A DNA stretch of 64,000 bases from Chloroflexota bacterium (GCA_023434145.1 JAEYTI010000365.1:1001-65000), one strand, 5' to 3'. Numbered from the stretch's first letter, positions 12,378-62,894 are shown. Notes: a model not told the origin generated them from the sequence alone. Numbers and translations are program-made.

Positions 12378-12400
12378 GCTGCTCACCCTTATAAAAGATT

Positions 12401-12430
12401 ATAGGCCTTGGACAAACCAAGGCCTATTTT
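12401..12430. terminator. Bidirectional intrinsic terminator between convergent genes
   Basis: Perfect 11-bp stem ATAGGCCTTGG / CCAAGGCCTAT with a 5-nt loop. TTTT follows on the + strand and CTTTT on the - strand. It lies between the stops at 12377 (+) and 12433 (-). Confidence 0.75.
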
Positions 12431-12432
12431 AA

Positions 12433-15400: not shown

Positions 15401-15750
15401 GAGCTGAGAAACTCTAGCTCGACGCGCTTGTGGTCATCTGAGGACTCATAGGGTGGATTAAGGAACAGAAGTGAGATGGATTCGTTGGAAAGAAAGCAGG
15501 CTTGCCAGGGAGCCTGAAAGACGCGGTCCATCTTCTGGCCGGCTGTGGCTGCACGAGCGGGAGATAGTTCCACGCCCCAGGTTGCGCAGTTCATCGCGCG
15601 GCCCAGTTTGGCTGCGGCAATGCCTTCCCCGGCGCAGGGATCGAACAGGCGGGCTTTCTCAGAGGCGGGTGCGATATAGGTGGTGAGGATGTCGATAACG
15701 GGTTCGTCGGTTGGGTAGTAACCCAGTTTTTCTACGGCTGGCGGTCTCAT
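12433..15750 (-). CDS. Fusion of an N6-adenine DNA methyltransferase and an SNF2/DExH helicase (DarB-like, 1105 aa)
   Basis: Start moved to MRPPAVEK (AAGGAGAG RBS). MTase motifs are LFDPCAGEGI and LLFLNPPYES. Helicase motifs are AEMGSGKTTVA, VSDELHQFKG and QAVRRVWRLGQTKPV. A Cys4 cluster (CPTCG..C) lies between the lobes. Confidence 0.85.
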   Translation of the reverse strand: MRPPAVEKLGYYPTDEPVIDILTTYIAPASEKARLFDPCAGEGIAAAKLGRAMNCATWGVELSPARAATAGQKMDRVFQAPWQACFLSNESISLLFLNPPYESSDDHKRVELEFLSSTTSKLVRGGLLIYIVPQHILGLVQVARILAGQYECLTVGRFPDGLFEKFKQVVVLGYRRKSYTIPTEAEIEAVQAWAKMELDPIAPLSEPVYHLLPAPERGLDGRPVIFKRTDWEAEDVVEATLEHGFQRTKEWLDLIQPDHNRAELTQPVMPLKKGHVAMLMASGMMGTVRLTDEEGRPMLIKGRVVKKVEKVGEEGKGEEVTETYRDRFVTTVAVLKQDKIEVIQDIQGLVPFMKAYGEKIAAHVMKTYRPLYNFDPTPQEVQVLDRLGQERKPLPGQDRPGLLPTQRHAAAALARCIRKHGVANCQAEMGSGKTTVASAVIDLLNAYPALIICPPHLVPKWIREVEEVIPGVHAREIRRIGRNAEDPGDINDVRAFLEDYDAGRSGKKAVAVVANTAAKFGAGWKPAAMQKRTVDPLTGHRIWAYACPTCGTLIETEENGVIVPVTDLEQLAKKRHFCRAMVPGWQLNPDGTRKLDGDGNPIWGTRLCKTPLFDFTTVRREAIAEYIAKKASGRFHILVSDELHQFKGKSSDRGIAFHQLVTACKSTLTLTGTFFGGKSTSIFWLLHRLNAGVRRDFAFNEELRWARLYGVLETKRKRRRDDADEDGVFTGNRRYRNNAKEQPGISPAIINRLLDTTIFLSLKDLGLALPAYNEEVTTLEMLEEQSSQYQQMESTLKSMALQSNRYLSTWLQWSLARPNSAFREETVMIDEAKDEKGKVVRKVPLMVLPPVVNSNPKWLPKEGWLADFCRNEKWQGRKVLVYVRQTGTRDIQDRVVEPLKEAGLRTAVLSSGVDPRRREEWIANRVAHTDVLVCNPKLVETGLDLVQFSTVIFFETEYSLYCLWQAVRRVWRLGQTKPVKALFSVYEGTMEARALALMGRKMRAAQTLYGDEVGGAIVPEEDGDLLTELAREVLKEAELPDLQAMFADDLHMSHNPMGSLTMPSATIMPDPKALTWNDWVTKKTVVVRKTMRKEVLPEGQMGLGI

Positions 15751-15865
15751 AGGTCTCTCCTTGTGAAAAGGTGATGCCCGATGAGACGCGCAGCACCCCA
15801 ACGGGGACGCGCCCCATCGGGGGAATAGTGAGTTGTGTCATTGGTGAATTACAGGGGGGGTGTGT

Positions 15866-16942
15866 TTAGAGCACGATCTCGTGTTCGGTCAGCAACTGCT
15901 CGATCAAGCCTTTCCAGTCGGCCGGCCCGCTGAGCGCGATCCGGCAGCCCAAGATGCAATCGCCGCCAACAGTGAGCTTCTCCAGGTACTTGTGTTTCAC
16001 GGCTGCTTGCCATAACACGGCCGCCCATTCATCCAGAATGGGGATTTCCACGGCTTCCTTCAGCCGCTTGATCACCGCCTTTTTTGCAGCCGCCTGTGGA
16101 TCCAGCTCGCCACGAAAGACCAGCACATAGGCGTATAGATCCTCCGGTTCCCATTTGCCAGGAATGGCCTGGCGGGCGACAAAGGCAGCGTGATGGCTGG
16201 TGTATTCCGGCATCGGGTGCAGCAGGTGTTTGTACCGGTCGAGCGGCAGCAGCATCTGATAGGTGTGCTGGTCGGGGAACTGCATATTGAGCGGCTTATG
16301 GGTGATCAGGGTGGCGCGCAGCGATTCCAGGCTAGTCTTGTAGCCGGTGACCCCAGCGTAGACCAGGTAGTTGTCGCGGTCAAAGGCGTAGCCGGACAGG
16401 TGACCGAGGGTATGCGCGTTGGCCAGGGTCGGAACCGCGCCCGGATATAGGCGGTCCACCGGCGCTTTGCTATCCTGATAGGTGATCTTCCAAACAATTA
16501 CGCCGGTGTTCTTGCGGCTCAGTTCCTCGTTTAGTTCGGTCAGGATCTGGTTGCCGGCATTCCACACCGATACGCCGGTGAAGGTGATCAGCGTATCGCC
16601 CACCTGGACCTCTGCGGTGCGGGTGGCCAGGTTGAGGACAACTTCACCAAGCGCAAGCGGCTTTTGGTTGCGCAGCACCGCCGGCAGCGCCTGGTTTCCT
16701 TTCGGAAAGAAACTGTACATCCCCAGATCGCTTTCGTAATCCAGGAATCCGCTGTTGCCAACGATGTACGAGTGGGGGTGAAGGTTAGCCGCGTAGCGCA
16801 GGTCGGACAGGTCTTCGCGGGTGGGCAGACCGGTCCCGTCTTTGTAGGCAGCCACCAGGATTTTGCCTTTCTTCTGGGCCTGAATGACTTTGCTGACGCG
16901 CTCGCGCAGGTACTGGTCTGTGTAGGGTTGTTTGGTGCTCAA
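15866..16942 (-). CDS. Hypothetical protein (358 aa)
   Basis: Long ORF co-directional with the island. TTG start with AAGGAGG 5 nt upstream. I recognise no motif. Confidence 0.6.
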   Translation of the reverse strand: MSTKQPYTDQYLRERVSKVIQAQKKGKILVAAYKDGTGLPTREDLSDLRYAANLHPHSYIVGNSGFLDYESDLGMYSFFPKGNQALPAVLRNQKPLALGEVVLNLATRTAEVQVGDTLITFTGVSVWNAGNQILTELNEELSRKNTGVIVWKITYQDSKAPVDRLYPGAVPTLANAHTLGHLSGYAFDRDNYLVYAGVTGYKTSLESLRATLITHKPLNMQFPDQHTYQMLLPLDRYKHLLHPMPEYTSHHAAFVARQAIPGKWEPEDLYAYVLVFRGELDPQAAAKKAVIKRLKEAVEIPILDEWAAVLWQAAVKHKYLEKLTVGGDCILGCRIALSGPADWKGLIEQLLTEHEIVL

Positions 16943-16963
16943 GTGATCCTCCTTGTAGTTTCT

Positions 16964-16990
16964 TACAAACGATTGGGTTTCGATGACGAT
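16964..16990 (-). promoter_or_regulatory. Conserved island motif, copy 1 (ATCGTCATCGAAACCCAATCGTTTGTA on the - strand)
   Basis: Lies 21 nt upstream of the start codon at 16942. It is 26/27 identical to copy 2. An AACGTT-containing extension upstream is also conserved. Confidence 0.55.
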
Positions 16991-17197
16991 AGCGAACGTT
17001 CGTGAGCCTACCGCTCAGGGCAGGGCAGCACACGCAAAGGTCTCTTCGGTGGTCTTTGCGTCTGCCGTCCTACCTTGGAAGGAATTTCGGATGACCGGGC
17101 TGGTATATAATTGGAGACGATCCGGGTAAGGAAAAGACCAATAATCATCAACCAGATATTGATCTCTAGCCGCGTTACCGACATCGGAGGTGGGTGA

Positions 17198-17812
17198 TTG
17201 AACCGTGAACTGATCCTGTTCGACTTTGAATACACTGCCTGGGAAGGCTCCAAAGCGAGAAAATGGTCGGAACCCTGGGAGCATCGTGAGATTATCCAGG
17301 TTGCAGCAGTGCGCATTGCCGTAAACGGATCTGCGACAGAACGGGAAAGTTTCGAATGTCTGGTCAAGCCGAAAAAGAACCCAGATCTTTCATCCTATAT
17401 CATTCAACTCACGGGGATTCAGCAGGGAGAGATGGATTTGCGCGGTCTATACTTTCCCCAGGCTTTTGCTTCGTTCTTCGCGTTTTGTCATCAGGGAAAG
17501 ATTCCGCTATTTTGCTTTGGGGATGATCCATCTGTCTTGCTGGAAAATTTTGCATTGAATGCGATGGAATGCCCTGCATTTCCTGCCGGCGTGCATGATA
17601 TCCGTTTGGTTTTTGAGCAGGCCGGTATTGATACCCGCCCATATACGAGCGGAACAATTCATCGGGTACTTGGCATCGACTTTCCGCATGCAGCCCATAA
17701 TGCGTTGAACGATGTACGCAGTCTGGCAGTGACAATCCAGCACTTGTTGCAACTGGGAAAGATAGACTTATCTGGCGAGGCCGCGCACAAGGCAAGATTT
17801 CTAACCCTATAG
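17198..17812 (+). CDS. DEDDh (DnaQ-like) 3'-5' exonuclease
   Basis: 204 aa. ExoI LILFDFEYTAW and ExoIII HNALNDVRSLA. TTG start preceded by GGAGGTGGG. This is the only + strand gene in the 12.4-24.7 kb block. Confidence 0.7.
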   Translation: MNRELILFDFEYTAWEGSKARKWSEPWEHREIIQVAAVRIAVNGSATERESFECLVKPKKNPDLSSYIIQLTGIQQGEMDLRGLYFPQAFASFFAFCHQGKIPLFCFGDDPSVLLENFALNAMECPAFPAGVHDIRLVFEQAGIDTRPYTSGTIHRVLGIDFPHAAHNALNDVRSLAVTIQHLLQLGKIDLSGEAAHKARFLTL

Positions 17813-17857
17813 GCCGTTCCGTATTTCTTCTTCAGGATTTCTGTCAACACCGCAGTG

Positions 17858-17892
17858 CTGGGCTGGAAAGAGGTGATCTCTCTCCAGCCCAG
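17858..17892. terminator. Stem-loop between convergent genes (exonuclease and dnaN); probable terminator without a clear U-tract
   Basis: 10-bp perfect stem CTGGGCTGGA / TCCAGCCCAG with a 15-nt loop. Confidence 0.35.
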
Positions 17893-17905
17893 TCCTTCTA
17901 CCAGG

Positions 17906-19021
17906 CTATCCCACATGCACCGGCATGAGGATATATTGGTAACTACTGTTACCCGACGGGCTCATGGTCATCGGGGTCTTGTGGCCGTTGCCTTGCAGGA
18001 CGATTTCCGGTGACTTCACCACGCTGAGGAACTCGCGCAGGAAGCGGACGTTGAAGGCAATTTCCAGTGCATCGCCCTCGATCCACGCCGGTAAGTGGGA
18101 TTCGCTCAATCCGGTCTCCTCCGCGGAGGCCGACACGCGCAGCTCCTCGCCTTCGGCTTTCAGCTTCACCACGTTTTGCCCGTCGCGAGCGATGATCTCG
18201 GCCTGCTTGCAGGCTTTGAGCAGCCCGTCGGTGCTGACCGTGACCCTCGTCTTGTGCGACTTGGGCAGGATCATCTTGTAGTCGGGGAAGTTGCCGTCCA
18301 CCAGCTGCGAGATGACCTGCAGCCGGCCGTGCTGGAAGATAATCTGGCTGCCACTCTTGGGCAGCACCAGATCGACCGGTTCGTTTTCCATTCCGATCAG
18401 CCGCACCAGTTCCTTCAGGGCGCTGGCCGGAATGACCAGCTTGCGCGGCTTGTCGACGAGCGACTGCGAGAACTCGTGCTGGCGCAGCGCCAGGCGGAAG
18501 CCGTCCGTGGCCGCCAGGGTCAGGCGCTTGCCGTCCATTTCGACCAGCACGCCATTCAAGACCGGCCGTGAGGTGTCATTGGAAGCGGCGAAGGTCACTT
18601 GGTGCAGCATTTCGCGGAAGGCGGCGGCATCCAGCGCCGAGCCATCTTGGTTAATACGGCTCGGCATTACGGGGTAGTCAGACGCGTCCATCCCTTTGAG
18701 CTTCGCCTTGACCGGGCCACAGCGGAGATCCGCGTCTGGCGTGCCGTTCAGGTGCAGCGAGACTTCCGCGTCACTCAAGGTGTTGACCAGATCGGAGAGG
18801 ATTCGGGCGGGTAAGGTGGTTGCGGCAACCGCATCCGTCTTTGCGTCGATCTGCAGGGTGATGCCGACTTCCAGGTTGGTGGAAGCCAGCTCCAGCTGGC
18901 CGCCCTCGGCTTTGATCAGGATGTTGCTCAAGATCGGCAGGGTGGCGCGGGTGGTGACGGTGCGGGTGACGATCCCCAGCGCCTGGGCCAGGGAAGCTTT
19001 CTCTATAGTAATAGTAGCCAT
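17906..19021 (-). CDS. dnaN: DNA polymerase III beta sliding clamp (element-encoded copy)
   Basis: 371 aa. The N-terminus ..LAQALGIVTRTVTTRATLPILSNILIKAEGGQLELASTNLEVGI.. and the overall three-domain length are typical of DnaN. Confidence 0.85.
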   Translation of the reverse strand: MATITIEKASLAQALGIVTRTVTTRATLPILSNILIKAEGGQLELASTNLEVGITLQIDAKTDAVAATTLPARILSDLVNTLSDAEVSLHLNGTPDADLRCGPVKAKLKGMDASDYPVMPSRINQDGSALDAAAFREMLHQVTFAASNDTSRPVLNGVLVEMDGKRLTLAATDGFRLALRQHEFSQSLVDKPRKLVIPASALKELVRLIGMENEPVDLVLPKSGSQIIFQHGRLQVISQLVDGNFPDYKMILPKSHKTRVTVSTDGLLKACKQAEIIARDGQNVVKLKAEGEELRVSASAEETGLSESHLPAWIEGDALEIAFNVRFLREFLSVVKSPEIVLQGNGHKTPMTMSPSGNSSYQYILMPVHVG

Positions 19022-19024
19022 TGG

Positions 19025-19552
19025 TTATCCTCGAAGTGGTTGGGCTTGTTCATTGAGCCAGGCGGTCAGCGCCGCCACAGCCTTCTGCGTGGTTTCCATC
19101 CAGAGCATCACGTCCTGGACGGTGACGGTATCCATCTGCTGGAAGCGGCCGATCACCAAATCCAGCATTTGATCTAGACTGTCGACATGGAAGATCTGTT
19201 CGCTCTGCGGCCATTGGGCAGATAGGAAGGCACGAGCGTCCTGGGGTTTGGCGATCCAGGCTTTGCGCTCCTGCCGGTCGATCACCAGCCAGGCTTTCGC
19301 TTCGGTCTCGGAGGAACCAAGATCGACGCGGTACAGCGCCGGGTAGATGATCGGGTGCTGGATATAGGCCAGGAAGCCCTGCCACTCGCCGGTGGCGGTG
19401 GTGCGGCCGTCGGAAACCATTGCCTCATCGCCGCAAGGTTCCCACCAGGCAGCGAAGAAACGAGCTTGGCCGTTATAGCCCAGGGCCTGCTCGAGCAGCG
19501 GATCCGGTGGAACCGGGATAGACAGGGTCGCAAAGGTATCGTTGGGAAGCAT
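19025..19552 (-). CDS. Hypothetical protein (175 aa)
   Basis: Start moved to MLPNDTF (GGAGG 7 nt upstream, 19 nt after the upstream stop). Only 3 nt separate its stop from the dnaN start. Confidence 0.55.
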   Translation of the reverse strand: MLPNDTFATLSIPVPPDPLLEQALGYNGQARFFAAWWEPCGDEAMVSDGRTTATGEWQGFLAYIQHPIIYPALYRVDLGSSETEAKAWLVIDRQERKAWIAKPQDARAFLSAQWPQSEQIFHVDSLDQMLDLVIGRFQQMDTVTVQDVMLWMETTQKAVAALTAWLNEQAQPLRG

Positions 19553-19571
19553 ATGTGTTCCTCCAGGTGAA

Positions 19572-19994
19572 TTAGAAGTCATCATCGTAGTCACCGCAAC
19601 CGGGGTAGTAGCCTTCGTCATCGCCTAGGCGAGTCGAATTCTCGTACTGCTCGGTGAATGGCCCTTCGTCCGGTTCGATGTCCGGTTCCGCCCATTGGCG
19701 GTACTGCTCCGGCACACCTTCTTCAAAGATCACGTATAGGACGTACGGCCACTGCAGGGCATCCGAGTTGTGGAGCGCCCGTTCCGCCCGTTCGATCAAA
19801 TCGGTCACAAAGGCGTCGGTGACCACCTCGTCCGGTACCTGGAAGCGCTCCAGCACTTCGGCCAGATACTGCGCCAGGTTGGCGTAGGTGATTTCAAAGG
19901 CGGTCTTGTGCGGTTCGTAGCCGAGTTCGACCAGCCGGTGGAGGATTTCGTCTTTCCTGGAGGGTTCGGGGTTGACTTGCGGGTCTTGTGTCAT
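19572..19994 (-). CDS. Highly acidic 140-aa protein (candidate DNA mimic or anti-restriction protein)
   Basis: By my count ~33 Asp+Glu versus ~9 Lys+Arg. C-terminus ..GDDEGYYPGCGDYDDDF. Co-directional with radC and dnaN. Confidence 0.55.
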   Translation of the reverse strand: MTQDPQVNPEPSRKDEILHRLVELGYEPHKTAFEITYANLAQYLAEVLERFQVPDEVVTDAFVTDLIERAERALHNSDALQWPYVLYVIFEEGVPEQYRQWAEPDIEPDEGPFTEQYENSTRLGDDEGYYPGCGDYDDDF

Positions 19995-20040
19995 GGTTGT
20001 GTCGTCCTTTCGGGTGAGCTAGGGTGGTAGGAAACCTGGA

Positions 20041-20760
20041 TTATGAAAAGCCCAGGCCGCGTTCTTTGAGGCTGACCCAGTTGGGGTTGCCGATGATCAG
20101 GTGATCGAGCACCGAGATATCCAACAGCTTGCCGGATTGGACCATGGCGCGGGTGATGGCCACGTCTTCCGGGCTGGGATCCGGATCGCCGGAGGGATGG
20201 TTGTGCGCGATCACGATGGCCGCCCCATTTTGCTGGATGGCGGGTTTGAACACTTCCGCGATGCGCACGGCGGCCGAGTTGAGGCTGCCGTGATACACCT
20301 CGGTAATCTCCAGCACCCGGTGGCGGGTGTCGCAGGTGATCACCAGCAAATATTCTTGCTGGCGATACGCCATGCGCGGCACGAAAATCTCCGCCGCTGA
20401 AGAAGGGCTGTTGACCAGCGGGCGTTCATCCTCCGGTTCGAGCAGCTTGCGCCCGATCGCTAAGGAGGCTTTCAGGCGCAGCGCGGTTTGTGAGCCGACG
20501 CCTTTGACCGAAGCGATCTCGTTGACGTGCGCGCCGGCTAACTTGTGGAGCGTACCGAAACGGAAGAGCAGGCGCTCGGCGGTTTCAATTTGCTCGCTGC
20601 CGCCGATGATCACGGCCAAGAGCTCGGCTAAGTTGCAAGCATCAGCGCCAGTTGCCACCCGGTAAGCTGGTTTTTCGCGGATGGGGAGGGCTTTGACTTT
20701 CGGGGTGGAATAAGGGGTGAGTGGAGTGGTGAAGAGCGTAGGTGGGAGTGGATCGGTCAT
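20041..20760 (-). CDS. radC: RadC-like JAB/MPN domain protein
   Basis: 239 aa. HhH-like N-terminal half (..EIASVKGVGSQTALRLKA..) and the JAMM motif HNHPSGDPDPSPED. Confidence 0.85.
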   Translation of the reverse strand: MTDPLPPTLFTTPLTPYSTPKVKALPIREKPAYRVATGADACNLAELLAVIIGGSEQIETAERLLFRFGTLHKLAGAHVNEIASVKGVGSQTALRLKASLAIGRKLLEPEDERPLVNSPSSAAEIFVPRMAYRQQEYLLVITCDTRHRVLEITEVYHGSLNSAAVRIAEVFKPAIQQNGAAIVIAHNHPSGDPDPSPEDVAITRAMVQSGKLLDISVLDHLIIGNPNWVSLKERGLGFS

Positions 20761-20845
20761 GGGGTCTGTCTCCGGGGAAAAGTAGCGGGAACAGACTCCA
20801 GCCTTTTTTTTGAAGGGGAGGTCTGTCCCCTTCGGTTGGGGTGGG

Positions 20846-21352
20846 TTATGCCGTTGGATCGAAGCCTTCCGCGGCGGCTTTGGCGTAAATGTCTTTCAGA
20901 TCGTCTGCAGTCAAGATTTCATCCCGCCGGACGCCAGGATAGCCGTCTACAGGGGGAACGATCCAGGGGTTTTCTTGCCAGTTGCGGTAGATGCGCTCGA
21001 GCTTGGCCTGCAGGAAATGGTTGATCCCGCCGCTTTCGCAGCGCCAGCCTGGCTCGCGGGTGTATTTGCCATCCCAATCCGGCGCGCGGGTGGTCTTCCC
21101 GCCGCAAATGGGACAATCTGGCTGAGGGTCAGGCGCGCGCTGGCCGCCTTCGCGCAGGTACTCGCGCACCTGGTCGATGGCAGCGCAATGCGCTTCGCCG
21201 CAGCTGCATTGTTTTTGCTTGTTGACGCGATGAAGGCGGGGCCGAACTGCGAGGCCAAAATCGACCAGGTATTCGCAGCCCCAAATCACGACGCCAGTTT
21301 TATGGCTAGTTGGTGCGGTTGAAGTCGATAAATCAGGGTGGGTGGTGGTCAT
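20846..21352 (-). CDS. Cys-rich (zinc-ribbon-like) hypothetical protein (168 aa)
   Basis: Start moved to MTTTHPD (GGAGAT 6 nt upstream). Cys clusters are CSCGEAHC and CPICGG..WRCESG. Confidence 0.5.
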   Translation of the reverse strand: MTTTHPDLSTSTAPTSHKTGVVIWGCEYLVDFGLAVRPRLHRVNKQKQCSCGEAHCAAIDQVREYLREGGQRAPDPQPDCPICGGKTTRAPDWDGKYTREPGWRCESGGINHFLQAKLERIYRNWQENPWIVPPVDGYPGVRRDEILTADDLKDIYAKAAAEGFDPTA

Positions 21353-21373
21353 GTGGGATCTCCAGGTGTGGGG

Positions 21374-21400
21374 TACAAACGATTGCGTTTCGATGACGAT
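21374..21400 (-). promoter_or_regulatory. Conserved island motif, copy 2 (ATCGTCATCGAAACGCAATCGTTTGTA on the - strand)
   Basis: Lies 21 nt upstream of the start codon at 21352, the same spacing as copy 1. Confidence 0.55.
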
Positions 21401-21600
21401 CTTTGCAAACGTTGATGAACCGTCCAGGCAGTGTTTTGCCAGACAGTACACGCTGGAAGAGAAACTTCATTTCGCCACCATTCTGGCTGGCGGAGTAAGG
21501 TTTGGAGCTTGCCAGCCGGTTCTCTTACGGCGTGTCTCAACCTGTTCCCCACAAAAGCCAGGCAGTCAGGCTGCCGGGCTTTGGTCGAGAAAGGTTGGTA

Positions 21601-21831
21601 TCAGGTCGGATCTTGTAATACCTGGATGGGTTTTTCGCGGATTCGCTCAACCGCCACGTAGATACTGTCCGTTTGCGCCGGGCCTCCGTGCGTAAAAACG
21701 GTAAAGGGCTCGCCGGAAAGGGCGCGAACGCTGGCAAGTTTTCGCCCACGAACATCGATTACACTCATAATCTCAACCGGAATATCTGCTTTTCCTGTGA
21801 GCGTGTCGATCGTAACGGTGCCAATAATCAT
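21601..21831 (-). CDS. Hypothetical small protein (76 aa)
   Basis: ORF co-directional with the island. Weak GGAG upstream. No recognisable motif. Confidence 0.4.
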   Translation of the reverse strand: MIIGTVTIDTLTGKADIPVEIMSVIDVRGRKLASVRALSGEPFTVFTHGGPAQTDSIYVAVERIREKPIQVLQDPT

Positions 21832-21849
21832 GGTTCTGCTCCGGGTGGG

Positions 21850-21881
21850 CCGGTTCCTGGCAAAGAATTGCCAGGAACCGG
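21850..21881. other. Perfect 14-bp stem-loop (CCGGTTCCTGGCAA agaa TTGCCAGGAACCGG) between two small genes; function unknown
   Basis: Read directly from the sequence. No U-tract on either side, so it is not a canonical terminator. Confidence 0.5.
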
Positions 21882-21893
21882 TAAGGAAAAAGT

Positions 21894-22100
21894 CTAGTCG
21901 TTCCAGCCGCTAACACGGTCTTCGTACGCCATTTCGAGGTGGGCGTCCGGGGCCGGGTGGGGTGGAAGGGGAGAGACGGCTTCCTGTAAGAAGCTGGTCA
22001 GTGTGTCAACCAGGGCGTCATCAGTGATCGGGTCAAAACCAGTACCGAGCACTTTTTCGACCAGGGCAACGATGGTCTTTGCGATCTGATGGTTGCTCAT
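21894..22100 (-). CDS. Hypothetical acidic small protein (68 aa)
   Basis: ORF lying 10 nt downstream of ssb on the same strand. No motif recognised. Confidence 0.45.
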   Translation of the reverse strand: MSNHQIAKTIVALVEKVLGTGFDPITDDALVDTLTSFLQEAVSPLPPHPAPDAHLEMAYEDRVSGWND

Positions 22101-22110
22101 CGCTCATCCC

Positions 22111-22518
22111 TTAGAAGGGGATATCGGCATCAGGGGTGGAGCCAGGCTCGCTATCTGAGGCTCCGTTCTCACCCTTCGAGGACAGGAAACGGACAGTCGC
22201 GGCGGTAACTTCATACGACGCGCCGGCCGAGCCATCCTGGCGGTTCCAGACGCGCGGACCCCCGGTATCCGGATCGGGGGTCAGCCGGCCTTCGACGAGG
22301 ACTTTGCTACCCGACTGTAAGTGCTGGCTGCAGGTTTCGGCTAGCTTGCCCCAGGCAGTGATGCGGAACCAGGTCGTTTCTTTGACCGGCTGGCCGCTTG
22401 GGTCGTTATAGCTGCGGTTCGAGGCGACCGAGAAGTTGGTGACCGGTTGACCGGAGGGCGTGTATTTCATCTCCGGATCCTTGCCTAAATTGCCAACGAG
22501 AATGATGGTGTGAAACAT
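22111..22518 (-). CDS. ssb: Single-stranded DNA-binding protein
   Basis: 135 aa. OB-fold N-terminus MFHTIILVGNLGKDPEMKYTPSGQPVTNFSVA..WFRITAWGKLAE and the canonical acidic tail ..DADIPF. Confidence 0.9.
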   Translation of the reverse strand: MFHTIILVGNLGKDPEMKYTPSGQPVTNFSVASNRSYNDPSGQPVKETTWFRITAWGKLAETCSQHLQSGSKVLVEGRLTPDPDTGGPRVWNRQDGSAGASYEVTAATVRFLSSKGENGASDSEPGSTPDADIPF

Positions 22519-22536
22519 GGGGTATCTCCTTGTACG

Positions 22537-22572
22537 AAAAATAAAGCCCCAATCCGGAAGGGGAGAGGGGCT
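22537..22572 (-). terminator. Intrinsic terminator after the SWIM-Rad52 gene
   Basis: On the - strand: AGCCCC, a 16-nt loop, GGGGCT, then TTATTTTT. Confidence 0.45.
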
Positions 22573-22599
22573 GGTGATCCGATGGGCGGAATGCCTGGT

Positions 22600-23706
22600 T
22601 TAGGCGGCTGTGGTTTGGGTGCGCATCCAATCTCGCAGAACATCCCGGCTTTGGGGAGCCTGCCCTTTGGACTTGAGGAAAGTATCGAAGGCGGTGCGTT
22701 CGCTTTCATTGCCATTTACCTTCGTTCCATCTTGATAAATCCGTTCAGCAGGTGGATTGGCTTTGGCAGCCGAAGGCACATTTGCTTTGCCGTTGGCCTT
22801 GTTTTTTGATTCTGAACCAGTGGCGCTTGCGCTGCGAGAAGAGGCATTGGCGGAACTGCCAGCCCCGTTACCATTGGAGCCGGTCCCAGCCGTTGCAGCG
22901 ATCTCTTTATCGTAAAGGCTCAAGCCGAACTGCTCACCCAACTGGCGGAAGCAGCGCTTCAAACAGTCGGTGACGCAGCCGGCAAGGGCCATGTCCAGCG
23001 CCTCTGGCGTATCGCCGGTAAACATGCAGCGGCCAAGATCCGAGTGGGTGTAGTTCTGTCCATCCAGGGTAATCTGGACAGAGCCAGTGATGTACACCAT
23101 CCCGACCTCCTCCAATTGCGGCTGTCCCTGCAGGTCAAGTGCAGGCACTTTCTTGCGCTGTTGAGCATCCCAGATCAGGATGCGGCGGTTCCAGCGCACA
23201 ATCTGCGGCTCGCTCAGCAGGTTATAGGACCAGCAGTAAGAGAAGATGCGGTTGGCAGTCTCGATGACATCGTAGCCTTCGAGATATGGAACTGTGCCTG
23301 AACCGGGTGCCTGGCGGCGTTTCACCCGCGTCATATCCAGTGGTTGGCGCAGATTGCTCAGAATGTGTTCGAAGTCGGGAGAATTCAGAGATGGGTTCAT
23401 AGTAAATTGCTCCGGTGGTTGCGTTGAATTGGTCTGGTCAATTTCCGCAATGCGCACGGCTTCCACATGTTTACATCGCAGCTCGTGGCCGTGCTTTTGA
23501 AAATCTGGGCAGGTGCAGGACCAGGTGGTATCCAGCAGTTGGACGGCATAGGGCGGTTTTTCCCCGTTTTGAACCGACCACTGAGTGGGTCCAATGCGCT
23601 GGACGGCGAACTGATGTCCGTTCAGGCCTTGCCAGGCTCGTATAGTGCGCTGATTCTGTGCGTCTGCGGGGTCGAGGGTATCAATGTAGGCGGCCAGGGA
23701 TACCAT
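22600..23706 (-). CDS. SWIM zinc finger fused to a Rad52/22-family single-strand annealing protein
   Basis: 368 aa. SWIM motif WSCTCPDFQKHGHELRCKH (CxC..CxH). Rad52-like block ..VPYLEGYDVIETANRIFSYCWSY... Low-complexity Ser/Ala/Gly tail. Confidence 0.7.
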   Translation of the reverse strand: MVSLAAYIDTLDPADAQNQRTIRAWQGLNGHQFAVQRIGPTQWSVQNGEKPPYAVQLLDTTWSCTCPDFQKHGHELRCKHVEAVRIAEIDQTNSTQPPEQFTMNPSLNSPDFEHILSNLRQPLDMTRVKRRQAPGSGTVPYLEGYDVIETANRIFSYCWSYNLLSEPQIVRWNRRILIWDAQQRKKVPALDLQGQPQLEEVGMVYITGSVQITLDGQNYTHSDLGRCMFTGDTPEALDMALAGCVTDCLKRCFRQLGEQFGLSLYDKEIAATAGTGSNGNGAGSSANASSRSASATGSESKNKANGKANVPSAAKANPPAERIYQDGTKVNGNESERTAFDTFLKSKGQAPQSRDVLRDWMRTQTTAA

Positions 23707-23715
23707 GCTGGTCCC

Positions 23716-23841
23716 TTACAGGTAACGTTTGAGCCGTTGCTCGTACTTGTATTGAGGCGTTTGGGAGTAAATCAAGGCGGCCAGATTGCGCAGCATCAGA
23801 GCGGCGGTGATCAGGCCAATCAGGATTGCGAGAGCTGTCAT
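23716..23841 (-). CDS. Small single-TM protein (41 aa)
   Basis: Start moved to MTALAILIGLITAALML.. (GGAGGA upstream). Motif copy 3 lies just 5' of it. Confidence 0.4.
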   Translation of the reverse strand: MTALAILIGLITAALMLRNLAALIYSQTPQYKYEQRLKRYL

Positions 23842-23864
23842 AGGTGTGATCCTCCGGGTGGTCA

Positions 23865-23893
23865 GAAAGACGATTTGAGTTTCGGAAACGATG
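23865..23893 (-). promoter_or_regulatory. Conserved island motif, degenerate copy 3 (CATCGTTTCCGAAACTCAAATCGTCTTTC on the - strand)
   Basis: Shares the blocks ATCGT, TC(C)GAAAC and CAA(A)TCGT with copies 1 and 2. Lies 23 nt upstream of the start at 23841. Confidence 0.4.
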
Positions 23894-24235
23894 GACGACG
23901 TAGTACAACTACCCTCGCTCACTTCGTGGCAGGGCAGCATACGCGGAATGCGAATGCTTTTTCGCGTTCCGAATATGCCGCTCTACTGGAGCGGCAATGA
24001 GTGATTATCTTGTGTGGGATATGAACCAAGGCGTTTCCACACCCGGGTTGTTTATTAAGGTGCTGGAATCAAAAAAGGAGGATCACCCGGTTCCATTAGA
24101 ACGCGAAGTTCTAAAAGCGCCGGCCAGCCGGCCGATATGGCAAGCTGTTTCGGGTGATCCTCCTGGTGAATGCCCACGATGTCAGGGGGAGATCGCGAGC
24201 GGTGGTATGATGTGATATAGGAGCTGAATAGTCGA

Positions 24236-24700
24236 TTAACCAGCCGTGGTAAGAACCTCCTCTTCGCTTTCTTTTCGCCGGGTGGTGGAACCTGGCGCTC
24301 TGCGTGGCGTCTCGATCATCAAGATGCGCTGGACCAGGATCTCGATGACGTTGCGGCCAATGCATACGTCTTTTCCCGCGCCGCCCTTGACTTCAACGGT
24401 GATATCGCCATTGATCCGGCTTTGCCGGCGCGATTTATCGAGGAATTCGTCCAGCGATTCTTCAAATTCTCGGCTTTGCAACAAACCATGTACCCGCAGG
24501 TGCTGGCCTTTCTGGATAACCAGCGGGCTGCGGGCGCCTTTGGTAATCCTGGCATTGATGTAATCAGCCGCATCTCGTTCTTCATTGAGCAATTTTCCGG
24601 GTAGGTCAGGATCCCGGTATGACGCCAGGCGGAAAAACAGGTCATCGGAAAAGGTCCAGGTGTTGATTACCACACCTTCTAAAATCACTTCATTGATCAC
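24236..24700 (-). CDS. Possible OB-fold (SSB-like) protein (154 aa)
   Basis: Start moved to a GTG (AAGGAG 6 nt upstream), giving MINEVILEGVVINTWTF..FFRLASYRD. The upstream part of the track ORF is AT-rich promoter DNA. Confidence 0.5.
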   Translation of the reverse strand: MINEVILEGVVINTWTFSDDLFFRLASYRDPDLPGKLLNEERDAADYINARITKGARSPLVIQKGQHLRVHGLLQSREFEESLDEFLDKSRRQSRINGDITVEVKGGAGKDVCIGRNVIEILVQRILMIETPRRAPGSTTRRKESEEEVLTTAG

Positions 24701-24811
24701 AGACTGCTCCTTGTAGGTTAAAACAGAAAAGCCAGGAACGGCCTCTTGGAGGCGCGCTGCTGGCTCACGATTGGTTGGAAAACGGTAATATTCTATTTGA
24801 TTGTTGTTATG

Positions 24812-24840
24812 AATATAGCACAGTCCGAATCGAGTGTCAA
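24812..24840 (-). promoter_or_regulatory. Sigma70-type promoter for the OB-fold gene and the island operon
   Basis: On the - strand: TTGACA, a 17-nt spacer, then TATATT. It lies ~105 nt upstream of the GTG at 24700. Confidence 0.55.
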
Positions 24841-24845
24841 TAAGC

Positions 24846-26121
24846 AATTAACTGATGTTCGGACAAGAGTTCGGACAAAAAGGGGGGAAGACAAGAACCT
24901 CCTAACTCGATAAACTCAAGTCACCACAACCGAGATCGAGGAAGGAGGCTCTCATGCATAATTGTATCCAACTTTCAGACATGTTAGCGTATGTATTGGA
25001 TCGGGACGACTGGATTGCCAAAGCCGAGCGGATCGTGCGTGGGCTGTTGGAAGCGCGCAGTGCGCGGCTGTCAGCGATTGCGGAGAAGATGGCAGGACTG
25101 CCGGAGACGAATTACAAAATGCTGCAACGCTTTTTGGGGAAGGTGGATCTAAAAGCGAGCTTGGGACGCTTGTTTCAAGCAGATGCCGAGTTTGTGATTG
25201 GAGATCCGACTGAAATGCCGCGACCTCAGGCGAAAAAGACTGCCTACGTGGGGCACCTGTCGGATGGGGAGACACTCGGCTACTGGCTCTTGGTGCTGGC
25301 AACGCCGTTTCGAGGCCGTGCGATCCCTTTTCACTTCATCAGTTATTCGTCCAAAACCATCGCCGATCAAGCCACCTCCCGCAACCAGGAACATATGCGG
25401 GCCTTTGCTGGCATCAAAGCCTGGTTGGGCGAACGACCGTTAGTGTTGGATCGGGAGTTTAGCTACCTGGAACTGCTGCATGCCTTGGTGGCCGAACAGG
25501 TGCACTTCGTTATTCGCCTGAAAGTCGGTCTTCCCCAAGTGACCCTGACGGACGAAAACGGCCAGCCGATTAAACTGACCATCCAACCTGGGCAGAAGGT
25601 GATCGTTCGGCAGGTGCGCTATAAAGGCGTCGTACCCGTCCAGCTGATTGGCTTCTGGCGCGTCGGCTTGTCCGCCCCCATGTGGATTATGACCGACCTG
25701 GAACCCGAGCGCGGCCTTTCCATTTATCTCAAACGCATGAAAATCGAGCAGTCTTTCCGCGACTGCAAGGACTTGCTGGGGTTGGATCGCAGCATGAACA
25801 AACAACAGGCGCACATGGAGCAGATGGTCGCCCTGGTGCTGCTCGCTTATGTCCTGGCCCTCTTCTGGGGTGAAGCCTTGCGCGATATCACCTATGGGGA
25901 GGTTGCCCCGGAGGCGATTACACCCCAGTCCTTCTTTGCCTATCCCCGTTCGGTCCCTGACCGCTCCAAATGGAAACACTATTCGGGTTTGTTTGTCCTG
26001 CTCAAGCAGCGTTTGCGCATCCCCCTGGATCTACTCCAGCGCCTCCACCAACCCGTTGTCCAAGCCTTTGCCCTCCTCGTATATGGCAATGTCCGATCTT
26101 TTGTCTGAACACCAGGCAATT
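24846..26121 (+). mobile_element. IS4-family insertion sequence (~1.28 kb)
   Basis: Imperfect 21-bp terminal inverted repeats, AATTAACTGATGTTCGGACAA (24846-24866) versus the reverse complement of 26101-26121, AATTGCCTGGTGTTCAGACAA (17/21 match). The element holds a single DDE transposase ORF. Confidence 0.65.
24954..26108 (+). CDS. IS4-family DDE transposase
   Basis: 384 aa. The Y(2)R(3)E(6)K signature is YLKRMKIEQSFRDCK. GGAGG RBS. Confidence 0.8.
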   Translation: MHNCIQLSDMLAYVLDRDDWIAKAERIVRGLLEARSARLSAIAEKMAGLPETNYKMLQRFLGKVDLKASLGRLFQADAEFVIGDPTEMPRPQAKKTAYVGHLSDGETLGYWLLVLATPFRGRAIPFHFISYSSKTIADQATSRNQEHMRAFAGIKAWLGERPLVLDREFSYLELLHALVAEQVHFVIRLKVGLPQVTLTDENGQPIKLTIQPGQKVIVRQVRYKGVVPVQLIGFWRVGLSAPMWIMTDLEPERGLSIYLKRMKIEQSFRDCKDLLGLDRSMNKQQAHMEQMVALVLLAYVLALFWGEALRDITYGEVAPEAITPQSFFAYPRSVPDRSKWKHYSGLFVLLKQRLRIPLDLLQRLHQPVVQAFALLVYGNVRSFV

Positions 26122-26663
26122 AATAAATGATATAAATTTTTTGTGGGTTCGAAAATTTGCTGGCAATAAAGAACCTATAAAAGCGATTTAGTTCCTTTGA
26201 CCCCTTTAGAGCGCCTCTTCATGGATAATGTACTCCTTTTCGTCACTTTTACCTCCCGCTACATCAATTTCAGAAGTTGCGCATCCGTTTAAATTATTTG
26301 TTAATTACAAAGATTGATTAAAGTAATTGTAACCAAAGCCGAGGATAGAGATAATCGATACATATACCTCTCAAATACGATAATGAAATTAATCAATATC
26401 TATAAAGACACACTGAACCTATTAATTGGAAGGCCCTCCCCGGGCTACTTTTCTAGTACATATGGGGTTGCAAGGCTTGTTTTGTCCCATATTTATGGGC
26501 TTTCTCGTGCAATAATTACACGATTTTCATTATGTGCACGCATATCGCACGACAATTGCACGACGTAAATTGGGTGCGAGGCGGGTTTCCAGCGGCTGCA
26601 CTGCATCTGACGTAAGGGATCGGTCCTTAAAGCTGTAAGAATTTAAGTCTAGCATTTTTCATA

Positions 26664-27560: not shown

Positions 27561-27625
27561 AAAAGTGCAAAAGAACCCCCATTGGTAAGCCGAGTTCGAG
27601 AACAGCAGTCGCTCAATGCCTGACT

Positions 27626-28645: not shown

Positions 28646-28666
28646 GATTCACCTCAAATAGGCTGA

Positions 28667-29797: not shown

Positions 29798-29799
29798 AC

Positions 29800-31185: not shown

Positions 31186-31231
31186 GTGCGTTTCACCAGC
31201 TTTTGGACATCAATCATAGTCTTGCAGTGGT

Positions 31232-31915: not shown

Positions 31916-32205
31916 TTTCGTTTCTCCTGAGATGGAATCCGAATAAGTTTCGACGGTCCTTTTTGGACAAGTGAGTGCTGAAGAGAAAACCATGACTGTT
32001 TGGAACGTTACTGGGGTAGGCTCAATAAAACTGTGTCTTTCCGACGGAGAAGACCCTTTTCCCCCTAAACTAATATGTAACAAATGAGATGAAATTCAAG
32101 AATAAGAATACAACTAAATACGATAAGTGACAAGTATTCTTTTGGTCATGTTTTTTGTTTGTAAGGTCTTTTACGAATTTTTAATGCAATAATATTATTC
32201 GTAAC

Positions 32206-32234: not shown

Positions 32235-32365
32235 CCACGTATTCCCATATAAAACTTTTTAACGGGTGAAATTCCAGGGGGGACACACCAGGCATCTATA
32301 TACGCTTACCACATCAAGAATTTTTGTTATGTGTATCTAGTCTTATTAAAAACCGCAGGAGGGAT

Positions 32366-59977: not shown

Positions 59978-60109
59978 GTCGTGGCTCCTGGTAGGTTCAG
60001 ACGCTTGGGTTTCAGATACGATCGAAGTACGATGGTTTCGTAGACTGCACTTCAGGGCAGGTCCGCGTATGGATCAGGGGATCCGCAGAGGATCACCGGA
60101 CGCATCCGC

Positions 60110-60805
60110 CTACCTGCGGCTCTGGGTGTGGCGAAGAAAAGCACGGACGTCGCCGCGTGGGCTAAGCGCGCTGCGCGGGTTGACCAGGAGTTGCTGGAGC
60201 AGGAGCGAGCCAAAGCCCAGCGGAATGACCAGCCAGAGCGCCCACAAGACCACCGTGGTTACGCTGGAACGGGTGTTGGCGATCACCGCTGCGGCCGAGT
60301 CGGTCGAGCCGATCAAGCCGGCCCACTGTTCGGGCGTCAGCTGAGCGGTGTAGCTGAGGTAGATGCGGCTGGCGATCACCGCCAGGCTGTAGAGGATCAG
60401 CCCAGTTTTGACGAACCACAGCGTGTTTTCGCGTTGGTGGTCGGGGGCGAGGAAGATCCCCGCCAGCCCGACCAGCCACATGCCTGCGCCAATCCAGGGC
60501 ACTGGCTCGCGGATCAGAAATTGCGCCAGTAGCCACAACCCAAGGGCGATCCCGGTCAGGAGCGCGGACATCGGCAGGATAGGGAGGGAAGCACTGGAGA
60601 GGTTGTCCATCGCGCCGCGCCGGGGAACAAAGCCGGCTTTCGCCTGGGCGGGTAAGTCAAACCAGTGGAAGCAGCCATACGCGCTCCCCAGGCTGACCAG
60701 TGAGGGAAAATTGGCAGCGAGCTGGTAGACAATCACCAGCAACCCGTTTGCAAAGTACACTGGCAGGTCCGCCAGCAGCATTCCCAGCCCATCCAGGGTC
60801 GACAT
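60110..60805 (-). CDS. Polytopic membrane protein (231 aa)
   Basis: About six hydrophobic helices. Its start overlaps the stop of the upstream gene by 1 nt. Confidence 0.6.
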   Translation of the reverse strand: MSTLDGLGMLLADLPVYFANGLLVIVYQLAANFPSLVSLGSAYGCFHWFDLPAQAKAGFVPRRGAMDNLSSASLPILPMSALLTGIALGLWLLAQFLIREPVPWIGAGMWLVGLAGIFLAPDHQRENTLWFVKTGLILYSLAVIASRIYLSYTAQLTPEQWAGLIGSTDSAAAVIANTRSSVTTVVLWALWLVIPLGFGSLLLQQLLVNPRSALSPRGDVRAFLRHTQSRR

Positions 60806-62865: not shown

Positions 62866-62894
62866 ATCATAACGGGGCGGAGAATCCATGTCAA
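62866..62894 (-). promoter_or_regulatory. Sigma70-type promoter upstream of the leader
   Basis: On the - strand: TTGACA (62889-62894), a 17-nt spacer, then TATGAT (62866-62871). Confidence 0.5.

What the first reader, a model, noticed from the sequence alone, without database searches (positions are those of the whole stretch)
16964..23893. Conserved 27-nt (extendable to ~45-nt) motif at a fixed 21-23 nt distance upstream of three start codons in the island
Read on the coding (minus) strand, two copies are nearly identical.
- Copy 1 (16964-16990): ATCGTCATCGAAACCCAATCGTTTGTA
- Copy 2 (21374-21400): ATCGTCATCGAAACGCAATCGTTTGTA

They match at 26/27 positions. Each ends exactly 21 nt before a start codon (16942 and 21352), just 5' of the Shine-Dalgarno sequence. 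A related AACGTT-containing stretch lies immediately upstream of both (CACGAACGTTCGC versus CATCAACGTTTGC).

A degenerate third copy (23865-23893) sits 23 nt upstream of the 41-aa gene start.

The position is too close to the start codon for a standard -35/-10 pair, and no conserved -10 follows it. It could be an operator for an element-encoded regulator, a translational control site, or a single-strand-specific element of the kind used in leading regions.
Basis: seen in the sequence. Interest (0 to 1): 0.6.

Follow-up and report, generated by a model that had tools for sequence, protein, structure and literature searches.

The report
Repeated operon-leader element of a mobile element
The 27-base motif is real: it is the core of a ~110-130-base control region, with two competing hairpins and short repeated boxes just before the ribosome-binding site, that heads each of four operons of a large, undescribed mobile element of Anaerolineae bacteria; how it switches these operons on is not yet known.

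Summary
Observation confirmed and extended. The two 27-nt copies (26/27 identical) and the degenerate third copy lie at the stated places. They occur nowhere else in the 6.2-Mb genome.

They belong to a module of about 110-130 nt. Its order is: long hairpin H1, short hairpin H2 (which competes with H1 for the same bases), an AACGT box, the motif (two ATCGT pentamers flanking GAAAC), the Shine-Dalgarno sequence, the start codon.

A fourth, diverged copy (59978-60128) heads a Tad-pilus/ATPase operon. That operon belongs to the same ~50-kb element, which 19 kb of cargo splits in this window.

All four copies recur at the same positions in related Anaerolineae elements. A family with ~50% protein identity keeps the architecture with other sequences (box CAACGTTGG) and compensatory changes in the hairpins.

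The copies hold no sigma-70 consensus. Canonical promoters sit only at the element head and before an SSB-like gene, whose own leader carries the same box.

Best reading (0.4): a shared leader acting on single-stranded nucleic acid, probably RNA, and bound by one trans factor. Rivals: a factor-dependent dsDNA promoter/operator (0.3), an ssDNA promoter or priming site (0.15), a passive RNA element (0.1). There is no Rfam, plasmid or phage match, and no transcript data could be obtained.

The parts
16943..17077 (-). Copy c1 of the leader module, before the 358-aa gene and the methyltransferase-helicase gene. H1 hairpin 17077-17019 (3' arm CTTTGCGTGTGCTGCCCTGCC). H2 17024-17007 (CCTGCC/GGTAGG). 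Palindromic box CGAACGTTCG 17002-16993. 27-nt motif 16990-16964. SD about 16956-16949. TTG start 16942.
   Evidence: (I14)
21353..21491 (-). Copy c2, before the 168-aa Zn-finger gene, radC ... dnaN. Weak H1 21491-21438. H2 21447-21419. Box CAACGTTTG 21414-21406. 27-nt motif 21400-21374. ATG 21352.
21555..21575 (-). Intrinsic-terminator-like hairpin with T run that ends the preceding unit, just upstream of c2.
23842..23984 (-). Copy c3, before the 41-aa membrane peptide, rad52/SWIM and ssb. H1 23984-23931. H2 23937-23909 (CTGCCCT/AGGGTAG). Degenerate motif 23893-23865. ATG 23841.
59978..60128 (-). Copy c4 (diverged), before a small membrane protein, a 1194-aa FtsK/HerA-like ATPase and the Tad-like pilus genes. 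ATCGT pentamers at 60033 and 60022. CTGAAAC at 60015. CAAGCGT at 60007. ATG 59977. Preceded by a terminator-like site at 60157-60142.
24812..24840 (-). Canonical sigma-70-type promoter (TTGACA-17-TGcTATATT, 11/12) of the SSB-like gene. Conserved in related elements.
24721..24774 (-). Leader of the SSB-like gene. Box CCAATCGTGAG (24774-24764) lies at the 5' foot of a terminator-like hairpin with a U tract. The ~50% family has its own box type (CAATCGTTGG) at the same place.
24236..24700 (-). 154-aa SSB/PriB-like OB-fold protein ('p203'; the true start is GTG 24700). Monocistronic. Candidate trans factor.
24070..24172 (-). Compound terminator after the SSB-like gene (AGGAGGATCACCCG ... CGGGTGATCCTCCT followed by a T run), directly upstream of the c3 region.
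62866..62894 (-). Second canonical promoter (TTGACA-17-TATGAT, 11/12), at the head of the element.

Best explanation
**What it is.** The 27-nt motif is the unpaired, sequence-specific core of a modular operon leader. The core is two A(T/A)CGT pentamers 17-18 nt apart with GAAAC between them, preceded by a third AACGT box.

**Module order.** Each module follows the terminator of the preceding unit. Then come a 20-27-bp hairpin H1, a short hairpin H2 that uses the 3' end of H1's conserved arm (so only one of the two can form), the boxes, 18-23 nt of variable sequence, a strong Shine-Dalgarno sequence and the first start codon of an operon.

**Where it sits.** Four such modules head the four regulated operons of a ~50-kb, one-directional Anaerolineae mobile element:
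- the Tad-type pilus/ATPase operon;
- rad52-ssb;
- radC-dnaN;
- the 358-aa gene with the methyltransferase-helicase.

**How I think it works.** The module acts while single-stranded, most likely as the 5' leader of the mRNA. The boxes next to the ribosome-binding site would be bound by one trans-acting factor, and the H1/H2 alternative would set accessibility. All four operons would then be switched together at the level of translation initiation, transcript continuation or stability.

**Candidate factor.** The element's own divergent SSB-like OB-fold protein. It is expressed from a canonical promoter, and its own leader carries the same box at the foot of an attenuator-like hairpin. If free ssDNA titrates it, the operons would respond to the element being single-stranded.

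**Shown versus inferred.**
- Shown: the architecture, copy number, conservation, hairpin covariation, absence of a promoter consensus, and the SSB-like fold.
- Inferred: that RNA is the active form, that this factor is the binder, and the direction of control.
For: 1. **Non-random and element-specific.** Only these copies exist in the window and in the genome.
2. **Conserved in place.** Copies sit at the same four positions in G001 C18 and C12, L019, L056 and L059.
3. **Architecture kept across families.** The ~50% family (own contig C299, G001 C172/C191, L020, L021, L038-L040) keeps the terminator-H1-H2-boxes-SD order with different sequences. Its H1 arm is CGTTTGCTGTTCTG and its box is CAACGTTGG, in tandem 23-31 nt apart.
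4. **H1 covaries.** Core pairs change as C-G to A-T, T-A to C-G and G-C to A-T. H2 arms differ between copy types yet stay complementary.
5. **H1 and H2 overlap.** They share bases in every copy type and in both families.
6. **The sense strand folds better.** It does so in 15 of 22 H1-H2 segments, by 2 kcal/mol on average and by up to 12 in L038. Sense-strand G-U pairs are frequent.
7. **No sigma-70-like site in any copy.** 11/12 promoters lie at 62894-62866 and 24840-24812 and are conserved in relatives.
8. **CAATCGT is concentrated in leaders.** Three of its four sense-strand occurrences in the element are in leaders. One lies at about +30 of the predicted transcript of the SSB-like gene, at the foot of a hairpin with a U tract. 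The ~50% family has its own box type there.
9. **SSB-like fold.** The p203 model has pLDDT 63, and its best PDB matches are almost all bacterial SSB/PriB chains.
10. **No shared DNA-binding regulator seen.** None was found among the proteins I searched or compared. An RHH gene is present in one element only.
Against: - Terminator-like hairpins with T runs lie directly upstream of c2, c3 and c4. If they are efficient, each module must contain a promoter, and I could not find one. A pure leader model then needs read-through or antitermination.
- In G001 C12 only about 6 nt separate the upstream hairpin from H1.
- The strand bias is modest: p about 0.03, on sequences that are related to each other, and c3 and c4 show none.
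- Classical SSBs are not sequence-specific.
- The p203 model is of medium confidence, with Foldseek E-values of only about 0.03. A profile comparison with the element's true SSB was not significant.
- The box in the p203 leader could equally be a DNA operator downstream of the start site.
- No transcript data are available.
Confidence: 0.4

Rival explanations
1. Double-stranded promoter/operator. Each module contains a non-canonical promoter that depends on an activator or an alternative sigma factor. The A(T/A)CGT direct repeats would be the binding sites of that factor, or of a repressor, on duplex DNA, as in the Reg576-controlled establishment promoters of plasmid p576. H1 would then be merely a back-up terminator for the upstream unit.
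For: - Terminators with T runs precede c2, c3 and c4, so a promoter is expected in each module.
- All boxes have the same orientation relative to the genes, and box 1 is a palindrome: CGAACGTTCG here, CAACGTTG in the ~50% family.
- A loose sigma-70 reading is possible in c1 and c2: TTCGCT or TTGCAA, a 16-18-nt spacer, then AATCGT, leaving a leader of about 19 nt (read from the sequence).
- The box-to-SD distance in the ~50% family falls into two classes, 22-24 nt and 33-34 nt, about one helical turn apart.
- Precedent: four p576 promoters share dual heptamers, some of them just upstream of the RBS (PMC6294495).
Against: - No consistent -10 or -35 across copies or families (manual inspection).
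- Box spacing varies from 23 to 31 nt.
- No DNA-binding regulator is shared by the elements.
- This reading does not explain three features: the sequence conservation of the H1 3' arm, the covarying H2 with 6-15-nt loops, or the conserved H1/H2 overlap.
Confidence: 0.3
2. Single-stranded-DNA element of an incoming or rolling-circle strand. This would be either an Frpo/ssi-like ssDNA promoter that lets the ssb/rad52/dnaN/anti-restriction-type operons be expressed before the complementary strand is made, or an sso-type priming site.
For: - Gene content and one-directional layout resemble a leading/establishment region: SSB, an SSB-like protein, a Rad52-type annealase, RadC, DnaN, a methyltransferase-helicase and acidic small proteins.
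- The element carries pilus/ATPase/lytic-transglycosylase genes.
- Several dispersed, homologous, hairpin-forming intergenic repeats lie upstream of such genes. That is the pattern described for Frpo/ssi (PMC11541004).
- No duplex promoter consensus is present.
- Hairpins on a transferred sense strand would fit the G-T bias as well as RNA does.
Against: - The stems are 21-27 bp and hold no TTGACA/TATAAT pair, which is the defining Frpo feature.
- An Frpo-type promoter needs the template strand to fold, but that strand folds less well in 15 of 22 cases.
- No similarity to any plasmid or phage record at blastn sensitivity.
- A copy also heads the pilus/secretion operon, which is not an establishment function.
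- No relaxase or oriT was identified, so single-strand transfer of this element is itself unproven.
Confidence: 0.15
3. Passive intercistronic RNA element. The hairpins would be RNase III-type processing sites or stabilisers, as in the phage T7 early region. The motif would be conserved only because the copies arose by recent duplication, with no dedicated trans factor.
For: Hairpins of 20-27 bp with internal mismatches lie between genes of a one-directional array. The copies are paralogous.
Against: - The unpaired boxes are the best-conserved part across copies that otherwise differ by 40%.
- The boxes are replaced as a set by another box type in the ~50% family, including in the p203 leader.
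- Module architecture is kept over ~50% protein divergence, which argues for selection on the boxes themselves.
Confidence: 0.1

Closest known systems
Frpo/ssi single-stranded DNA promoters of F and ColIb-P9 leading regions (Masai and Arai 1997; Samuel et al. 2024, PMC11541004)
   Same: Several dispersed homologous intergenic repeats in one orientation. Each forms a hairpin and lies upstream of ssb or anti-restriction-type operons of a mobile element. No ordinary duplex promoter is visible.
   Different: No sequence similarity. The stems are too short and lack the -35/-10/UP elements that define Frpo. The template strand folds worse than the sense strand. One copy heads a pilus operon. The host is Chloroflexota, and no oriT or relaxase is known.
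Reg576 operators at the four establishment-gene promoters of Bacillus plasmid p576 (Val-Calvo et al. 2018, PMC6294495)
   Same: Four operon heads within a few kb share short direct-repeat motifs, some just upstream of the RBS. The regulator gene lies in the same region and carries the motif itself (autoregulation).
   Different: In p576 canonical sigma-A promoters are evident and the repressor is a ribbon-helix-helix protein. Here there is no promoter consensus and no shared DNA-binding protein, and there are conserved competing hairpins in addition.
Translational operators of ssDNA-binding proteins: T4 gene 32 and f1 gene V acting on gene II (textbook knowledge, not tested here)
   Same: A structured element is followed by an unstructured stretch with short repeats that reaches the ribosome-binding site. 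An SSB-type protein encoded next to it could be titrated by ssDNA.
   Different: Binding has not been shown. The boxes here are sequence-specific pentamers. Four different operons would be controlled, not one gene.
Processive antitermination sites (lambda nut, HK022 put) and phage T7 RNase III sites (textbook knowledge)
   Same: Repeated hairpin-containing RNA elements in the long one-directional transcription units of a mobile element.
   Different: nut and put sites precede the terminators they overcome, whereas here each module follows a terminator. No N, Q or NusG-paralogue gene was seen. The resemblance of GCGGTAG in c1 to the RfaH ops core is not conserved (T/C varies as a paired base).

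Membership tests
Frpo/ssi ssDNA promoter | A long stem-loop that rebuilds a duplex -35 (TTGACA), -10 (TATAAT) and UP element | tested here: not met
   H1 stems are 21-27 bp and H2 stems 6-11 bp. No hexamer pair is present in either arm. The definition is taken from PMC11541004.
Frpo/ssi ssDNA promoter | Sequence similarity to known Frpo/ssi elements | tested here: not met
   blastn (word size 11) of the c1 module against 72,556 plasmids, a collection in which I expect F-type and IncI-type plasmids to be represented, gave no match. Megablast of the island gave no match either.
Frpo/ssi ssDNA promoter | The transferred strand is the template strand of the downstream genes, close to oriT | not testable with these tools
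   No relaxase or oriT was identified in the element. The template strand folds less well in 15 of 22 segments.
Repressor-controlled establishment promoters (Reg576 type) | A recognisable sigma-A promoter overlapped or flanked by the repeated motif | tested here: not met
   No sigma-70-like site in any copy. The two canonical promoters of the element lie elsewhere.
Repressor-controlled establishment promoters (Reg576 type) | An element-encoded DNA-binding repressor that also carries the motif at its own gene | tested here: inconclusive
   No HTH or RHH protein is shared by the elements. The SSB-like gene does carry the box in its leader.
Described RNA family (Rfam 15) | A match to a covariance model at or near its gathering score | tested here: not met
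   E-value-mode scan of 12000-26500 on both strands gave only three chance-level hits, including a plant miRNA model on the H1 hairpin at 26.9 bits against a gathering score of 64.
Structured cis-regulatory RNA leader (generic) | Helices supported by compensatory changes, and alternative pairings conserved | tested here: met
   H1 core pairs covary. H2 arms differ between copy types but stay complementary, and the H1/H2 overlap is kept in both families. Transcription of the region itself was not testable.

The most novel reading that the evidence does not exclude
A new leader-RNA family works together with a sequence-reading SSB-like OB-fold protein as an ssDNA sensor for a whole mobile element. 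When the element is single-stranded, during transfer or rolling-circle replication, the protein is titrated off the boxes. All four operons (pilus/ATPase, rad52-ssb, radC-dnaN, methyltransferase-helicase) are then released together. This would be a gp32-like logic scaled up to a ~50-kb, Tad-pilus-bearing, conjugative-type element in Chloroflexota, a phylum for which I know of no characterised conjugation system (from my own knowledge, not checked here).
Probability: 0.15. Interest if true: 0.75.

Novelty: new variant of a known kind. Interest (0 to 1): 0.5.

Why it matters
The module marks every regulated operon of an undescribed family of large mobile elements. These elements are common, and often multi-copy, in Anaerolineae, and they carry defence systems as cargo. 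The module is therefore a practical handle for finding the elements and defining their operons. It also makes one question directly testable: how such an element co-ordinates transfer and establishment genes in a phylum without genetic tools. If the modules prove to be ordinary factor-dependent promoters, the result is a routine regulon of a mobile element.

Tried and rejected
**Promoter and known-site readings**
- Sigma-70 reading of the copies. The consensus scan found nothing in them. Manual trials with ECF (GAAC..CGT), sigma-54, sigma-28 and sigma-B spacings did not fit across copies.
- LexA (GAAC-N4-GTTC). The c1 palindrome has no 4-nt spacer.
- RfaH ops-like core GCGGTAG in c1. Rejected because the T varies as a paired base.
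- integron attC and HUH/oriT-type readings. The R/L box consensus is absent, and four copies at gene starts do not fit.
- AACGTT as a methylation or restriction target. Its frequency in the element and in the genome equals expectation.

**Candidate regulators**
- A ribbon-helix-helix gene next to p203 in G001 C12 is absent from all other elements.
- PDB sequence searches with the 358-aa, 168-aa and SSB-like proteins gave nothing.
- The first AlphaFold run of the SSB-like protein, with 4 sequences, was useless (pLDDT 33).
- hhalign against the true SSB was not significant.

**Searches that added nothing**
- Exact-motif scan of viral contigs: none.
- Five of the six genome-contig hits were chance matches in coding DNA.
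- A class-level genome search repeated with G001 as centre drew what appear to be the same genomes (identical matches and coordinates) and added only G001's extra copies.
- No covariance model was built. nhmmer and manual structural comparison were sufficient.


Full report
**1. The observation**

On the minus strand, 16964-16990 and 21374-21400 read ATCGTCATCGAAAC(C/G)CAATCGTTTGTA, identical at 26 of 27 positions.
- With up to 3 mismatches these are the only hits in the window, and none occurred in 100 shuffles.
- With up to 6 mismatches they are the only hits in the whole 6.25-Mb assembly.
- Each copy ends 21 nt before a start codon that has a Shine-Dalgarno sequence.
- The third copy (23865-23893) is degenerate and ends 23 nt before ATG 23841.
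- The similarity does not run into the coding sequences, so this is not a duplicated gene 5' end.

**2. The motif is part of a larger module**

The three upstream regions align over about 110 nt. In the 5'-to-3' direction each has the following parts.
- **H1**, a long imperfect hairpin. In c1 it spans 17077-17019 with 19 of 21 pairs (I14). Its 3' arm is sequence-conserved (GCGTGTGCTGCCCTGCC).
- **H2**, a short hairpin whose 5' arm is the end of that same conserved arm, so H1 and H2 cannot form together. The arms are CCTGCC/GGTAGG in c1, GTCTGGCA/TGCCTGGAC in c2 and CTGCCCT/AGGGTAG in c3.
- **An AACGT box**: CGAACGTTCG in c1, CAACGTTTG in c2.
- **The motif**, which resolves into two A(T)CGT pentamers 17-18 nt apart with (C/T)GAAAC between them.
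- **18-23 variable bases**, then an invariant AC-NN-GGAG and the start codon.

**3. The context is one large mobile element**

The genes downstream of the copies are as follows.
- c3: a 41-aa membrane peptide, a Rad52-type annealase with a SWIM finger, SSB, and two small proteins.
- c2: a 168-aa Zn-finger protein, RadC, an acidic 140-aa protein, a 198-aa protein, DnaN.
- c1: a 358-aa protein of unknown fold and a 1122-aa DUF6094 methyltransferase-SNF2 helicase.

A profile built from the copies found a fourth, diverged copy at 59978-60128. It lies before a small membrane protein and a block of genes homologous to those that lie upstream of the same module in other genomes. Those genes are a 1194-aa FtsK/HerA-like ATPase, RcpC/CpaB, a TadZ-like ATPase, two T2SSE ATPases, TadE/Tad pseudopilins, a prepilin peptidase and an SLT transglycosylase.

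Window 44025-62779 and 12433-24843 are therefore the two halves of one minus-strand element. About 19 kb of lower-GC cargo with an IS separates them.

**4. Related elements**

The 358-aa protein has about 150 relatives, and all that carry a name come from Anaerolineae/Chloroflexota.

*Close relatives (70-94% identity).* These are two copies in the MAG CAYOHX01 (G001 contigs 12 and 18), plus L019, L056 and L059/L060. They carry c1, c2, c3 and, where the sequence reaches, c4 at the same positions. The pentamers, GAAAC and the H1 3' arm are conserved.

*The ~50% family.* This comprises a second element in this same genome on contig C299, G001 contigs 172 and 191, and L020, L021 and L038-L040. It keeps the order terminator, H1, H2, boxes, SD before the rad52 and 358-aa operons, and in C299 also before a third operon. 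The sequences differ.
- The H1 3' arm is CGTTTGCTGTTCTG.
- The boxes are tandem (G/C)AACGT(T/C)GG, 23-31 nt apart.

*More distant families (35-40%).* The genes there are tightly packed and there is no module.

**5. Evidence that a single-stranded form matters**

- In the ~50% family the pairs of the H1 core change in a compensatory way: C-G to A-T, T-A to C-G, G-C to A-T.
- H2 arms differ between copy types and orthologues yet remain complementary. Examples are A-U to C-G and U-A to C-G between the c2 orthologues, and G-U to G-C in c1 and c3.
- H2 loops vary from 6 to 15 nt. That is hard to reconcile with a duplex protein site.
- The H1/H2 overlap is present in every copy type of both families.

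*Which strand folds.* I folded 22 H1-H2 segments on both strands.
- The sense strand is more stable in 15, by 2 kcal/mol on average and by up to 11-12 kcal/mol in L038.
- Sense-strand G-U pairs are frequent.
- The bias is modest and the sequences are related to each other, so I take it only as a lean towards RNA or a sense-strand ssDNA.

**6. Promoters and terminators**

A consensus scan finds no sigma-70-like site in any copy. It does find two 11/12 matches on the gene strand.
- TTGACA-17-TATGAT at 62894-62866, the head of the element.
- TTGACA-17-TGcTATATT at 24840-24812.

Both are conserved in G001 C12 and C18.

The second promoter drives a monocistronic 154-aa gene. Its true start is GTG 24700, not the TTG of the longest ORF. 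A compound terminator follows it at 24172-24070.

Terminator-like hairpins with T runs also precede c2 (21575-21555) and c4 (60157-60142). This is the main difficulty for a pure leader model. Either these terminators leak, or they are overcome, or each module holds a promoter of a kind I cannot recognise.

**7. The 154-aa protein and its own leader**

It has 30 relatives and no Pfam family. A model from 28 sequences has pLDDT 63. Its best PDB matches are almost exclusively bacterial SSB and PriB chains, with TM about 0.55 normalised to the target and E about 0.03. I therefore call it SSB-like, with moderate confidence.

Its predicted leader carries CCAATCGTGAG (24774-24764) at the 5' foot of a hairpin followed by a U tract. 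In the ~50% family the same place holds that family's own box type: CAATCGTTGG in C299, CCGTTGG in L020/L021.

Three of the four sense-strand occurrences of CAATCGT in the ~31 kb of element DNA are in leaders. This ties the box to the SSB-like gene and places at least one box in a region that is almost certainly transcribed.

**8. Comparison with known systems**

- **Frpo/ssi.** These elements are defined by a stem-loop that rebuilds -35/-10/UP in ssDNA (PMC11541004). The hairpins here are too short and have no such hexamers. There is no blastn similarity to any plasmid or phage record. The general pattern of dispersed hairpin repeats before ssb-type operons is the same, but membership is not met.
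- **Reg576 regulon of p576.** Four establishment promoters share dual heptamers, some next to the RBS, and the repressor is autoregulated (PMC6294495). This is the nearest precedent for an operator reading. There, however, canonical promoters and an RHH repressor are evident. Here neither is, and the only RHH gene seen is private to one element.
- **Rfam.** No family matches.
- **Translational operators of T4 gp32 and f1 gene V** (textbook knowledge). These are the nearest functional analogy for the reading I prefer.

**9. Verdict**

The finding is real, larger than described, and conserved. It is a repeated operon-leader module of a previously undescribed Anaerolineae mobile element. My estimates are:
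- 0.4 for a leader acting as single-stranded nucleic acid (probably RNA) and read by one trans factor, with the SSB-like protein as candidate;
- 0.3 for a factor-dependent duplex promoter/operator;
- 0.15 for an ssDNA promoter or priming site;
- 0.1 for a passive RNA element.

Transcript ends would decide between them, and they could not be obtained here.

Noticed in passing
window 12433-24843 and 44025-62779 (minus strand), with 24900-44000 between them: The 'island' is half of a ~50-kb element. The pilus/ATPase half lies 19 kb away, separated by an IS and lower-GC cargo (TerY-P triad, HerA-like ATPase cassette). A second, ~50% diverged element on contig C299 of the same genome has about 23 kb of other DNA at the same junction. 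The site between the pilus block and the SSB-like gene therefore looks like a cargo hotspot.
   Followed up: partly
window 44025-62779; G001 contigs 12 and 18 (L022, L024, L025); L056, L057, L060: The element has Tad/Flp-type pilus genes, two T2SSE ATPases, a 1194-aa FtsK/HerA-like ATPase, an SLT transglycosylase and a 1000-aa Ig-domain surface protein. No relaxase was found. It may be an undescribed DNA-transfer apparatus in Chloroflexota.
   Followed up: partly
downstream of the methyltransferase-helicase gene: window <12433 (BREX); G001 contig 18 (L018 16660 onward, L023): Different defence-type cargo follows the same last gene in different genomes. Here it is BREX. In G001 it is a UvrD-like helicase, an ADP-ribosylglycohydrolase fusion and other unannotated proteins.
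   Followed up: no
G001 (Anaerolinea MAG CAYOHX01): contigs 12, 18, 172, 191, 44: One genome carries five copies of the ssb-rad52-radC-dnaN-358aa-methyltransferase module, from three divergence classes.
   Followed up: no
L059/L060 12161-13867; L037 11591-16831 (= G001 contig 12): Secondary insertions inside module genes: a group II intron (RVT_1/GIIM/HNH) splits the rad52/SWIM gene, and a Tn7-like unit (TniQ, AAA_22, Mu-type transposase) splits the methyltransferase-helicase gene.
   Followed up: no
window 24003-24062 (minus strand): A block between the terminator of the SSB-like gene and H1 of c3 is conserved even in the ~50% family (GCACCTTAATAAACAACC ... GGTTCATATCCCACACAAGATAAT). It ends in a -10-like GATAAT/GATATT but has no recognisable -35. 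It may be the real c3 promoter.
   Followed up: partly
window 17409-17795 and 17008-17367 (minus strand): The 128-aa and 119-aa ORFs between dnaN and c1 are doubtful genes. The 128-aa ORF is absent from G001 contig 12 and only 50% conserved in contig 18. The 119-aa ORF runs across the H1 hairpin.
   Followed up: partly
window 24070-24172 (minus strand): The terminator of the SSB-like gene is built from an SD-like AGGAGGATCACCCG and its exact complement about 70 nt downstream. GGAGGATCAC also forms the ribosome-binding sites of c1 and c3.
   Followed up: no
L037 1676-1909 / L057 8592-8825: In G001 contig 12 the junction before the SSB-like gene holds a small tyrosine-recombinase-like gene and a 77-aa product with a Pfam Acb5 (anti-CBASS) hit. 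This fits an anti-defence role for this part of the element.
   Followed up: no
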